Source: Escherichia coli (lineage in GTDB: Bacteria > Pseudomonadota > Gammaproteobacteria > Enterobacterales > Enterobacteriaceae). From it: DNA of 64,000 bases. Position 1 is the first letter of the stretch; the number at the start of each line of letters is the position of its first letter. This document shows, piece by piece, positions 9,001-12,000 of the stretch. Position numbers: made by a program. The stretch lies in NCBI RefSeq assembly GCF_003790525.1, contig NZ_CP033635.1, one strand, 5' to 3'.

Positions 9001-12000
9001 CCGGGCAAATACCCGGAATATAACTTCTACCGGATGGCAGGTATGGCAATCGACGGCAAAGATAAGGGTGAAGCAGAGAACGAAGCCAAGCCTATCGACG
9101 TCAAGAGCCTGTTACCGTAAGGAGAGGGGCAATGGAGTTCGCTTTTTATATCTGTGGCCTGATAGCCATACTTGCGACCTTGCGAGTGATCACCCATACC
9201 AATCCGGTACACGCACTGCTGTACCTGATTATTTCGCTGCTGGCGATTTCTGGGGTGTTCTTCTCACTGGGCGCTTACTTCGCCGGTGCGCTGGAAATTA
9301 TCGTCTACGCGGGTGCCATTATGGTGCTGTTCGTGTTCGTGGTGATGATGCTCAACCTGGGCGGTTCAGAAATCGAACAGGAACGCCAGTGGCTGAAACC
9401 GCAGGTGTGGATTGGTCCGGCGATTTTGTCGGCCATCATGCTGGTGGTGATTGTTTACGCCATCCTTGGTGTTAATGATCAGGGTATCGACGGTACGCCA
9501 ATCAGTGCTAAAGCAGTGGGTATTACGCTGTTCGGGCCTTACGTACTGGCGGTGGAACTGGCTTCTATGCTGCTGCTCGCGGGTCTGGTTGTGGCCTTCC
9601 ACGTTGGTCGTGAAGAGCGTGCGGGTGAAGTGCTGAGCAATCGTAAAGACGACAGCGCGAAAAGAAAAACGGAGGAGCACGCATGATCCCCTTACAACAT
9701 GGACTGATCCTCGCGGCAATCTTATTCGTTCTTGGCTTAACCGGTCTGGTTATCCGTCGCAATCTGCTGTTTATGCTGATTGGTCTGGAAATCATGATTA
9801 ACGCCTCCGCGCTGGCCTTTGTGGTCGCCGGAAGCTACTGGGGCCAGACCGACGGTCAGGTGATGTACATTCTCGCCATCAGCCTCGCGGCGGCAGAAGC
9901 AAGTATCGGCCTTGCGCTGCTGCTGCAACTTCACCGTCGTCGCCAGAACCTGAACATCGATTCAGTAAGTGAGATGCGCGGATGAACATGCTTGCCTTAA
10001 CCATTATTTTGCCATTGATTGGCTTTGTCCTGCTGGCGTTCTCCCGTGGGCGCTGGTCTGAAAACGTCTCGGCGATCGTGGGCGTTGGCTCTGTGGGCCT
10101 GGCGGCGCTGGTAACTGCCTTTATCGGCGTTGACTTCTTCGCTAACGGTGAGCAGGCATACAGCCAGCCGCTGTGGACGTGGATGTCGGTAGGCGACTTT
10201 AACATCGGTTTTAACCTGGTGCTGGACGGCCTGTCGCTGACCATGCTCTCGGTGGTCACTGGTGTGGGTTTCCTTATTCACATGTACGCCTCCTGGTATA
10301 TGCGCGGTGAAGAGGGCTACTCTCGCTTCTTCGCTTACACCAACCTGTTCATCGCCAGCATGGTAGTTCTGGTTCTTGCCGACAACCTGCTGCTGATGTA
10401 CCTCGGCTGGGAAGGCGTGGGCCTGTGCTCCTATCTGCTGATCGGGTTCTATTACACCGATCCGAAGAATGGCGCAGCGGCAATGAAAGCGTTCGTCGTG
10501 ACCCGTGTGGGTGACGTGTTCCTCGCTTTCGCGCTGTTCATTCTCTACAACGAACTGGGCACCCTGAACTTCCGCGAAATGGTGGAACTGGCACCAGCGC
10601 ACTTTGCTGATGGCAATAACATGCTGATGTGGGCGACGCTGATGCTGCTGGGCGGTGCGGTCGGTAAATCTGCGCAGTTGCCGTTGCAGACATGGCTTGC
10701 CGACGCGATGGCGGGCCCGACGCCTGTCTCCGCGCTGATCCACGCCGCAACGATGGTAACCGCGGGTGTCTACCTGATCGCCCGTACCCACGGCCTGTTC
10801 CTGATGACGCCGGAAGTTCTGCATCTGGTGGGCATTGTTGGGGCGGTTACGCTGCTGCTGGCCGGTTTTGCCGCGCTGGTACAGACCGATATCAAACGTG
10901 TTCTCGCTTACTCTACCATGAGCCAGATTGGCTACATGTTCCTCGCGCTTGGCGTGCAGGCATGGGATGCGGCGATTTTCCACTTGATGACTCACGCGTT
11001 CTTTAAAGCGCTGCTGTTCCTGGCATCCGGTTCCGTCATTCTGGCCTGCCATCACGAACAGAACATCTTCAAGATGGGCGGTCTGCGTAAATCTATTCCG
11101 CTGGTTTATCTCTGCTTCCTGGTGGGCGGCGCAGCACTGTCGGCACTGCCGCTGGTCACTGCGGGCTTCTTCAGTAAGGATGAGATCCTCGCGGGTGCGA
11201 TGGCGAATGGACATATCAATCTGATGGTGGCAGGTCTGGTCGGTGCGTTTATGACCTCGCTTTACACCTTCCGTATGATTTTCATCGTCTTCCACGGAAA
11301 AGAACAAATTCACGCTCACGCCGTGAAAGGGGTAACTCACAGCCTGCCGCTGATTGTGCTGCTGATCCTTTCCACCTTCGTTGGCGCACTGATTGTACCG
11401 CCGCTGCAGGGCGTGCTTCCGCAAACGACGGAGCTGGCGCACGGCAGCATGTTGACCCTGGAAATTACTTCTGGCGTGGTCGCGGTGGTCGGCATTCTGC
11501 TGGCTGCCTGGCTGTGGCTGGGTAAACGTACTCTGGTGACCTCCATCGCCAACAGTGCGCCGGGCCGTCTGCTGGGCACCTGGTGGTACAACGCCTGGGG
11601 CTTTGACTGGCTGTACGACAAAGTGTTCGTCAAGCCGTTCCTGGGTATTGCCTGGTTGCTGAAACGCGATCCGCTGAACTCAATGATGAACATCCCGGCT
11701 GTCCTTTCCCGCTTTGCAGGTAAAGGTCTGCTGTTAAGCGAGAACGGTTATCTGCGCTGGTATGTGGCATCCATGAGCATCGGTGCGGTCGTGGTGCTGG
11801 CACTGTTGATGGTACTGCGTTGAGTTAAGGATTGTGGGATTGCCCCTGGGCATATAAGAACGTAGGTCGGATAAGCCGCATTCGCGGTGCATCCGACACT
11901 ACCCCCAGTCCGAAGAGAATTTTCTGTCGTGAGAATTCGTTGAAAATCCGGTCCTGACGGGACTTTTACAAGGAATAAAGATCGCCATGTTACTACCCTG

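What the first reader, a model, noticed from the sequence alone, without database searches (positions are those of the whole stretch)
11824..11986. REP element inside the nuo operon (nuoL-nuoM spacer), the only long intergenic gap in the operon
All other nuo junctions are 0-50 bp or overlapping, but nuoL-nuoM is separated by 163 bp containing a REP-like palindrome. Intra-operon REPs can stabilise upstream mRNA or cause partial termination, so this may set differential stoichiometry of nuoA-L versus nuoMN.
Basis: partly seen in the sequence, partly recalled or inferred. Interest (0 to 1): 0.25.

Follow-up and report, generated by a model that had tools for sequence, protein, structure and literature searches.

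The report
Ordinary REP repeat between nuoL and nuoM
The 163-base gap between the E. coli complex I genes nuoL and nuoM does hold a genuine REP palindromic repeat, but it is an ordinary, dispensable one and there is no sign that it ends transcripts or sets subunit ratios.

Summary
The window is E. coli. The nuoL-nuoM spacer (11824-11986, 163 bp) matches K-12 MG1655 except for one loop base. A genuine single REP lies at 11862-11897, with GTAG first on the sense strand. Its core is a dispersed repeat (median 20 places per E. coli genome); the rest of the spacer is single-copy. The REP sits inside a locus-specific outer stem (11829-11838 / 11902-11911). Beside it is what looks like the remnant of a second REP, judged against the intact pair in a Citrobacter. 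"All other junctions 0-50 bp" is wrong: nuoB-nuoC is 93 bp.

The functional idea is not supported:
- No terminator is predicted in the spacer.
- Published Term-seq for K-12 lists 3' ends elsewhere in nuo, including the nuoB-nuoC spacer, but none here, and no Rho termination region.
- 724 of 5423 E. coli genomes (O157:H7 and others) replace the whole spacer with an unrelated 230-bp ERIC-like one.
- In 80 Enterobacterales species the spacer runs from 24 to 289 bp and carries REPs, REP pairs, ERIC-like elements, private hairpins or nothing.

Most likely it is a resident repeat at a junction that tolerates insertions, acting at most as a passive barrier to exonucleases. The better conserved part is the 3' module in front of nuoM: a 15-nt box and a covarying hairpin.

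The parts
9982..11823 (+). nuoL coding sequence (613 aa), stop TGA at 11821-11823
   Evidence: ORF list. 100% match to annotated nuoL in E. coli genomes.
11824..11986 (+). nuoL-nuoM untranslated spacer, 163 nt
   Evidence: Identical to K-12 MG1655 2393042-2393204 apart from one base in the REP loop.
11829..11838 (+). 5' arm of the locus-specific outer stem (GGATTGTGGG) that encloses the REP
   Evidence: Paired with 11902-11911 in the minimum-energy and centroid folds. The extended hairpin 11829-11911 has dG -41.4 kcal/mol. The same arms flank REPs in Citrobacter R56, K. oxytoca and Superficieibacter. Single-copy in E. coli.
11840..11854 (+). Probable remnant of a second, left-hand REP (TTGCCCCTGGGCATA)
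   Evidence: Aligns with the 3' end of the intact left REP (..CACCGGGCCTAC) of the REP pair in Citrobacter sp. R56. This is an inference from the alignment.
11862..11897 (+). REP proper: GTAGGTCGGATAAGCCGCATTCGCGGTGCATCCGAC
   Evidence: Inverted repeat I2. Matches the REP-foot pattern, with 0.04 expected by chance. Hairpin dG -19.9 kcal/mol. Weak, sub-threshold match to the REP-derived Rfam family naRNA4. Dispersed: median 20 places per genome, covering query positions 35-78 only.
11902..11911 (+). 3' arm of the outer stem (CCCCCAGTCC)
11934..11948 (+). Invariant 15-nt box AATTCGTTGAAAATC
   Evidence: Invariant in 12 sequences from several genera (Escherichia, Citrobacter, Enterobacter, Superficieibacter, Atlantibacter, Klebsiella). 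The string TTCGTTGAAA is present in 25 of 80 species spacers. The 3' module 11912-11986 is single-copy, one place per genome in 4699 genomes.
11950..11964 (+). Small conserved hairpin (GGTCC-TGACG-GGACT) just upstream of the nuoM ribosome-binding site
   Evidence: 95.6% of cells paired, 3 of 6 pairs changed on both sides, and 0 of 500 shuffles reach the covariation score. dG only -6.3 kcal/mol.
11970..11975 (+). nuoM Shine-Dalgarno sequence AAGGAA, 11 nt before the ATG
   Evidence: Read from the sequence. Invariant in alignment A3.
11987..13516 (+). nuoM coding sequence (509 aa)

Best explanation
This is a genuine single REP (repetitive extragenic palindrome) of the E. coli family at 11862-11897. 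It is probably the surviving half of an old REP pair, and it is nested in a locus-specific outer stem in the untranslated nuoL-nuoM spacer.

It is transcribed as part of the nuoA-N mRNA, where it should fold into a stable stem-loop: about -20 kcal/mol for the core and about -41 kcal/mol with the outer stem.

Most likely it is a long-resident, largely neutral repeat. It occupies a nuo junction that tolerates insertions because nuoM starts translation on its own, using its own Shine-Dalgarno sequence preceded by a conserved box and a small hairpin. At most the REP is a passive block to 3'-to-5' exonucleases acting on decay intermediates. It is not a terminator, and it does not set the nuoA-L to nuoMN ratio.

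Shown here: its identity, multicopy nature, predicted structure, conservation and replacement pattern, and the absence of mapped 3' ends. Inferred: neutrality, the barrier role, and independent initiation of nuoM.
For: Identity as a REP:
- The palindrome and GTAG foot match the REP pattern; 3 sites in the window against 0.04 expected.
- The core is dispersed, with a median of 20 places per genome, while the flanks are single-copy.
- The K-12 spacer is identical apart from one loop base.

The REP is dispensable and replaceable:
- 724 of 5423 E. coli genomes carry an unrelated 230-bp spacer with an ERIC-like repeat.
- In 80 Enterobacterales species the spacer is 24-289 bp, with REPs, REP pairs, ERIC-like or canonical ERIC elements, private hairpins, or nothing. 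Eight species have 41 nt or less.

No sign of termination or an accumulating 3' end:
- No terminator is predicted in the spacer.
- The K-12 Term-seq and Rho tables have no entry at 2392xxx-2393xxx, although they record five other nuo sites.

The REP is a self-contained module:
- Deleting 11829-11911 in silico leaves the predicted accessibility of the nuoM Shine-Dalgarno sequence unchanged, 0.26 in both cases.
- The 76-nt spacers of Enterobacter, Atlantibacter and some Citrobacter look like the E. coli spacer with exactly this module missing.

General background: REP hairpins resist exonuclease digestion (Dar and Sorek 2018, PMC6061677).
Against: - 60 of 80 species spacers fold significantly better than shuffles (z < -2, median -3.0). 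REPs sit at the same site within the same outer stem in Escherichia, Citrobacter, Klebsiella and Superficieibacter. Selection for 'some stable hairpin here' is therefore not excluded.
- Term-seq tables list only peaks above a threshold, in three conditions. A minor or condition-specific 3' end could be missed.
- I found no RNA-seq coverage, half-life or synthesis-rate data for nuoL against nuoM (searches gave nothing).
Confidence: 0.6

Rival explanations
1. The REP hairpin protects the upstream nuoA-L segment from 3' exonucleases after cleavage downstream, so nuoA-L mRNA outlasts nuoMN mRNA and the two blocks are expressed at different levels. This is how the malE-malF REPs work.
For: - The hairpin is stable: -19.9 kcal/mol for the core and -41.4 kcal/mol extended.
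- REPs are documented exonuclease barriers (literature summarised in PMC6061677).
- Structured elements are common at this junction across species.
- An AU-rich stretch that could be cut by an endonuclease lies just downstream, 11912-11948 (the cleavage itself is inference).
Against: - No 3' end is listed at the spacer in the K-12 Term-seq tables for three conditions, while other nuo-internal ends were detected.
- 13% of E. coli genomes and many related species lack the REP.
- Complex I has one copy of each subunit (established knowledge), so no difference in amount is needed.
Confidence: 0.2
2. The REP causes partial transcription termination or attenuation, intrinsic or Rho-dependent as reported for some BIMEs, and so lowers nuoMN transcription.
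For: It is an untranslated 163-nt stretch inside an operon, where Rho could in principle load. BIME-associated attenuation has been reported (Espeli et al. 2001, cited in PMC6061677).
Against: - No terminator-like site is found in the spacer, and no U-tract follows the REP.
- The bicyclomycin-based table has no Rho termination region at 2392xxx-2393xxx, and Term-seq has no 3' end there.
- It is a single REP, not an intact BIME.
Confidence: 0.05
3. The functional part of the spacer is the single-copy 3' module: the box AATTCGTTGAAAATC, a small covarying hairpin and the Shine-Dalgarno sequence. It would act as a standby or enhancer platform (or a processing or regulator-binding site) for independent translation of nuoM. 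On this view the REP is only a passenger upstream. This fits alongside the best explanation rather than against it.
For: - The 15-nt box and the Shine-Dalgarno region are invariant across genera, while the hairpin between them covaries.
- The module is single-copy and at least 99% identical in 4655 of 4699 E. coli genomes.
- It is kept in the 76-nt spacers that have no REP.
Against: - The O157-type allele and many species (Trabulsiella, Serratia, Hafnia, Pantoea) lack the box and use a different ribosome-binding region, TAAGGGACA....
- The hairpin is weak, -6.3 kcal/mol.
- No experimental data were found.
Confidence: 0.3
4. The REP acts at the DNA level, as a binding site for gyrase, IHF or DNA polymerase I, or in nucleoid organisation, rather than in RNA.
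For: Such binding has been described for BIMEs (my own knowledge of the Gilson and Boccard literature, not tested here). There is a weak resemblance to the REP-derived nucleoid-associated naRNA4 (E = 0.65, 19.4 bits against a gathering score of 59.5).
Against: - It is a single REP with a degraded partner, not the paired architecture those activities need.
- The Rfam match is far below threshold.
- The REP is replaced or absent in many genomes.
Confidence: 0.05

Closest known systems
E. coli REP / palindromic unit family (Y-type consensus GTAGGCCGGATAAGGCGTTCACGCCGCATCCGGC)
   Same: Same length class. Same GTAG foot. Same GGATAAG / CATCC lower stem with its asymmetric mismatch. G+C-rich upper stem. 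Extragenic but transcribed. Multicopy.
   Different: The foot pair C-G is changed to U-A on both sides (GTAGGT...CCGAC), and the upper stem and loop differ (CCGC-ATTC-GCGG). It sits inside a locus-specific outer stem not seen at the other copies.
Intercistronic REPs of malE-malF and hisJ-hisQ (classical mRNA-stabiliser REPs)
   Same: A REP in an untranslated spacer inside a polycistronic operon, downstream of a stop codon and upstream of an independently initiated gene.
   Different: Those cases have two or more REPs, documented upstream-stabilised transcripts and unequal protein needs. Here there is one REP, no mapped 3' end and a 1:1 complex.
BIME (bacterial interspersed mosaic element: two inverted REPs plus linker motifs)
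   Same: The orthologous site in Citrobacter sp. R56, Citrobacter NCU1, C. amalonaticus, Pseudescherichia vulneris and K. oxytoca holds a head-to-head REP pair (CTAC...GTAG). E. coli keeps the right REP and about 15 nt that align with the end of the left one.
   Different: In this window the left REP is no longer a palindrome, so the element is not an intact BIME.
ERIC / IRU elements (about 127-nt imperfect palindromes of enterobacteria)
   Same: They occupy the same nuoL-nuoM spacer in other genomes. Canonical ERIC is present in Serratia. An ERIC-like 117-nt element is present in E. coli O157:H7, S. enterica arizonae, Citrobacter, Raoultella, Kosakonia, Pantoea and Erwinia.
   Different: Absent from this window's allele. 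Unrelated in sequence to the REP.

Membership tests
REP (repetitive extragenic palindrome) of E. coli | Imperfect palindrome of about 35-40 nt that can form a G+C-rich stem-loop | tested here: met
   Arms 11866-11879 / 11884-11897. Hairpin dG -19.9 kcal/mol.
REP (repetitive extragenic palindrome) of E. coli | Conserved GTAG tetranucleotide at the foot, and the GGATAAG...CATCC lower stem of the E. coli consensus | tested here: met
   GTAGGTCGGATAAG...CATCCGAC matches the foot pattern. The same pattern recovers a textbook Z2+Y pair at 57135-57214. 0.04 expected in shuffles. The consensus was written from memory and then checked against that pair.
REP (repetitive extragenic palindrome) of E. coli | Many dispersed copies per genome | tested here: met
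   Median 20 (range 4-36) places per E. coli genome similar to the core (query positions 35-78) at a loose threshold. The full 92-nt module occurs once.
REP (repetitive extragenic palindrome) of E. coli | Extragenic location inside a transcription unit | tested here: met
   Lies between the nuoL stop (11823) and the nuoM start (11987).
REP (repetitive extragenic palindrome) of E. coli | Recognised and cleaved by the REP-associated tyrosine transposase (RAYT / TnpA-REP) | not testable with these tools
   Needs biochemistry.
BIME | Two REPs in inverted orientation separated by a linker motif | tested here: not met
   Only one intact REP is present. The left partner is reduced to about 15 nt that align with the end of the Citrobacter R56 left REP.
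Intrinsic (Rho-independent) terminator | G+C-rich hairpin followed directly by a U-tract | tested here: not met
   No terminator-like site in 11824-11986. The REP is followed by CACTACCCCC. The small hairpin at 11950-11964 has only 4-5 pairs, a TTTT tail and dG -6.3 kcal/mol, and in relatives it is followed by TTAAAAA.
REP acting as mRNA 3'-end stabiliser (malE-malF type) | A detectable, stable RNA 3' end at the foot of the REP | tested here: not met
   The curated Term-seq tables for K-12 in three conditions have no 3' end at 2392xxx-2393xxx. Absence from a thresholded list is not proof of absence.
ERIC / IRU | About 127-nt element with the central core ...GGAGCTTACATAAGTAAGTGACTGGGGTGAGCG | tested here: not met
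   No match in the window spacer. It is present in the alternative E. coli allele and in other genera.
Rfam families (any curated RNA) | Score at or above the family's gathering threshold | tested here: not met
   The best match is naRNA4 at 19.4 bits against a threshold of 59.5. Nothing was found for the O157-type spacer.

The most novel reading that the evidence does not exclude
The nuoL-nuoM junction of Enterobacterales could be a selected 'structure slot'. On this reading, unrelated palindromic elements (REP, REP pairs, ERIC-like elements, private hairpins) are repeatedly recruited and kept because a stable hairpin there marks a decay or translation boundary between nuoA-L and nuoMN. Whole spacer alleles would also be exchanged between genera: the O157:H7 spacer is 100% identical to that of S. 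enterica arizonae. The window's REP would then be one interchangeable solution to a conserved requirement.
Probability: 0.12. Interest if true: 0.45.

Novelty: already known. Interest (0 to 1): 0.15.

Why it matters
As it stands, very little. It is a standard REP at a locus shared with E. coli K-12, whose REPs have been catalogued for decades, and the proposed regulatory role is not borne out by the data I could reach.

The useful by-products are comparative:
- The junction is a hotspot where different repeat families replace one another.
- E. coli is dimorphic there, which gives a natural allele swap for testing whether intercistronic repeats matter for complex I expression.
- The conserved box and hairpin in front of nuoM are better candidates for function than the REP.

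Tried and rejected
- RefSeq annotation of K-12 lists no REP features at all. None appears even at malE-malF, a known REP site by my own knowledge. It therefore cannot show whether this REP is catalogued.
- My first hand-written REP pattern was one base out of register and missed even the REP itself. It was replaced by the regex.
- My automatic 'GTAG plus 10-bp arms' detector was too strict and found REPs only in the window. REPs in other species were therefore called by eye from the sequences.
- Supplement searches for nuoL/nuoM 3' ends, half-lives or operon variants gave nothing: Dar and Sorek 2018 (no files held), Chen et al. 2015, Conway et al. 2014, Yan et al. 2018.
- Li et al. 2014, Ju et al. 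2019 and Liang et al. 2015 are not held.
- Full-text searches for nuoL/nuoM with REP, ERIC or 'nuoL-nuoM' found nothing relevant.
- Small ORFs in the spacer (41 aa with a TTG start at 11832-11957; 24 aa and 52 aa on the - strand) run through the REP and have no support, so I set them aside.
- A promoter in the spacer is rejected: none is predicted, and the TTGAAA in the box has no usable -10 at 16-18 nt.
- The idea that the REP shapes nuoM ribosome-binding-site accessibility is rejected: the prediction is unchanged when it is deleted.

Full report
**What is there**

The window is Escherichia coli. The 401 bases around the finding match 5423 of 5426 complete E. coli genomes, several at 100%. 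The nuo operon lies on the + strand, with nuoL at 9982-11823 and nuoM at 11987-13516. The gap between them is exactly 11824-11986, 163 nt. It is identical to K-12 MG1655 2393042-2393204 apart from one base in the REP loop.

The other junctions are:

| Junction | Gap |
|---|---|
| A-B | 15 nt |
| B-C | 93 nt (105 in the K-12 annotation) |
| C-E | 2 nt |
| E/F | overlap |
| F-G | 46 nt |
| G/H | overlap |
| H-I | 14 nt |
| I-J | 11 nt |
| J/K, K/L | overlap |
| M-N | 6 nt |

L-M is therefore the longest gap, but the claim that all the others are 0-50 bp is wrong.

**Is it a REP?**

Yes.
- The sequence GTAGGTCGGATAAGCCGC-ATTC-GCGGTGCATCCGAC (11862-11897) has the GTAG foot and the GGATAAG/CATCC lower stem of the E. 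coli REP consensus.
- A strict foot pattern finds three sites in the 64-kb window: this one and a textbook Z2+Y pair at 57135-57214. Shuffles give 0.04.
- The core folds at -19.9 kcal/mol.
- In a loose BLAST of the 92-nt 5' module against E. coli genomes, the core (query positions 35-78) has a median of 20 places per genome. The full module occurs once per genome.
- Rfam gives only a weak sub-threshold hit to naRNA4, a REP-derived RNA.

**Anatomy of the spacer**

The REP is nested in an outer stem, GGATTGTGGG (11829-11838) with CCCCCAGTCC (11902-11911). This gives an extended hairpin of -41.4 kcal/mol that starts 5 nt after the nuoL stop codon.

The same outer arms flank REPs in other genera: a head-to-head pair in Citrobacter sp. 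R56 and K. oxytoca, and a REP-like pair without a GTAG foot in Superficieibacter. One arm position changes on both sides (U-A to C-G) in Superficieibacter. In that alignment the E. coli stretch TTGCCCCTGGGCATA (11840-11854) lines up with the 3' end of the left REP of the Citrobacter pair. The E. coli element therefore looks like the surviving right half of an old REP pair. That is an inference.

Downstream lies a single-copy 3' module (11912-11986, one place per genome). It consists of:
- an invariant 15-nt box AATTCGTTGAAAATC (11934-11948);
- a small hairpin (11950-11964);
- the Shine-Dalgarno sequence AAGGAA (11970-11975).

Across 12 sequences from several genera the hairpin is 95.6% paired, three of its six pairs change on both sides, and none of 500 shuffles reaches its covariation score. 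It is weak, -6.3 kcal/mol.

**Comparison across genomes**

*Within E. coli* there are two alleles.
- 4699 genomes carry the REP spacer.
- 724 genomes (O157:H7 and others) carry an unalignable 230-bp spacer.
- Nucleotides 82-199 of that 230-bp spacer belong to a dispersed repeat with a median of 4 places per genome at about 77% identity. Its core, GGAGCGTACTTAAGTACGTGAGGATTGCGAGC, resembles the ERIC core (the ERIC consensus is from my own knowledge of the ERIC1R/ERIC2 primer sequences).

*Across 80 species* of Enterobacterales, fetched with NuoM as the query, the spacer runs from 24 to 289 nt.
- Eight species have 41 nt or less and no structure.
- Enterobacter, Atlantibacter and some Citrobacter have a 76-nt form. 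It looks like the E. coli spacer with exactly the outer-stem-plus-REP module missing.
- Several Citrobacter, Klebsiella, Raoultella, Kosakonia, Pseudescherichia and Dryocola have their own REPs or REP pairs.
- 24 species have the ERIC-like element, and 3 Serratia have canonical ERIC.
- Many others have private G+C-rich hairpins.
- Overall, 60 of 80 spacers fold better than shuffles at z < -2.

**Does it terminate or stabilise transcripts?**

- No terminator-like site is predicted in the spacer, and the REP is not followed by a U-tract.
- The curated Term-seq tables of Adams et al. 2021 (PMC7815308; MG1655 in LB at OD 0.4 and 2.0, and in M63 glucose) list minus-strand 3' ends in nuo at 2391429 (76 nt into nuoN), 2394829 (217 nt into nuoL), 2399938 (nuoG), 2403873 (nuoB-nuoC spacer) and 2405082/2405086 (5' UTR).
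- No coordinate beginning 2392 or 2393 appears in any of that paper's supplementary tables, including the table of Rho termination regions.
- So the operon was covered well enough to call internal ends, and none was called at the REP.
- I could not obtain the other half, transcript coverage across the junction.
- Deleting the REP module in silico does not change the predicted accessibility of the nuoM ribosome-binding site, 0.26 in both cases.

**Interpretation**

The best-supported reading is that this is an ordinary resident REP at a junction that tolerates insertions, because nuoM is translated from its own ribosome-binding site rather than by coupling to nuoL. Independent initiation is inferred from the 163-nt distance and the conserved Shine-Dalgarno sequence. 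The REP may act as a passive exonuclease barrier, which is the general property of REP hairpins summarised in PMC6061677. Nothing indicates that it sets different levels of nuoA-L and nuoMN. Complex I contains one copy of each subunit (established knowledge), so no such difference is expected either.

The main point against pure neutrality is that structured elements are so common at this junction, and that REPs persist at the same site in several genera. I give the neutral-resident reading 0.6 and the stabiliser reading 0.2. A separate idea, compatible with the best explanation, is that the conserved 3' module is the functional part; I give that 0.3.

**Comparison with what is known**

It passes every sequence-level membership test for the E. 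coli REP family. It fails the tests for BIME, intrinsic terminator and ERIC, and the test for a mapped REP-stabilised 3' end. The locus is the same in K-12, where REPs have long been catalogued (my own knowledge; the RefSeq copy available here carries no REP features). I therefore rate it as already known and of low interest.

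Noticed in passing
L003:425-654 (E. coli O157:H7 493/89) against window 11824-11986; L007 (S. enterica arizonae): E. coli is dimorphic at this spacer. 724 of 5423 genomes carry an unrelated 230-bp spacer. That spacer is 100% identical to the one in Salmonella enterica subsp. arizonae, although the flanking 400 nt of nuoL and nuoM are only 86-90% identical between the two. The first 27 nt of nuoM also follow arizonae (4 of 4 differences), while the end of nuoL is E. coli-like. This looks like a short-patch replacement of about 260-330 bp between genera.
   Followed up: partly
L003:506-623 and the orthologous spacers of L010, L012, L028, L034, L035, L054, L068, L074, L085: The ERIC-like 117-nt element at this locus is 82-95% identical between E. 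coli O157 and Citrobacter, Raoultella, Phytobacter, Kosakonia, Pantoea and Erwinia. nuoM third codon positions are only 59-80% identical. The element therefore evolves more slowly than synonymous sites, by selection, gene conversion or transfer. It has no Rfam family.
   Followed up: partly
window 11934-11964: An invariant 15-nt box, AATTCGTTGAAAATC, followed by a small hairpin that covaries across genera, lies just upstream of the nuoM ribosome-binding site. It is single-copy in E. coli and its function is unknown.
   Followed up: partly
window 1078-1170 (nuoB-nuoC spacer), 3' end at about 1155: This is the second-longest nuo gap, at 93 nt. It has a long-range stem, CCTGTCGGC (1085-1093) with GCCGACAGT (1144-1152). 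The published K-12 Term-seq 3' end at 2403873 maps about 3 nt after that stem. The fold as a whole is not better than shuffles, z = -0.66.
   Followed up: partly
window about 13599 (nuoN +76), about 10199 (nuoL +217), and upstream of nuoA: Published Term-seq 3' ends lie inside nuoN (K-12 2391429), nuoL (2394829) and nuoG (2399938), and 10-14 nt upstream of the nuoA start (2405082/2405086). Window positions are converted from K-12 coordinates.
   Followed up: no
window 57135-57214: A textbook REP pair: a Z2-type REP on the - strand (57135-57170) and a Y-type REP on the + strand (57181-57214).
   Followed up: no
H75, E. coli O157:H7 strain TR01, 3159273-3159315: One O157:H7 genome matches only the last 43 nt (query positions 33-75) of the K-12-type 3' module. 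It may be a hybrid spacer.
   Followed up: no
spacers of L009, L018, L020, L007, L010, L012 against L011, L017, L036, window: There are two different ribosome-binding regions for nuoM: ACAAGGAATAAAGATCGCC and ATATAAGGGACATACKYAGCT. Both types occur within Citrobacter, Enterobacter and Escherichia, so their distribution does not follow genus boundaries.
   Followed up: no
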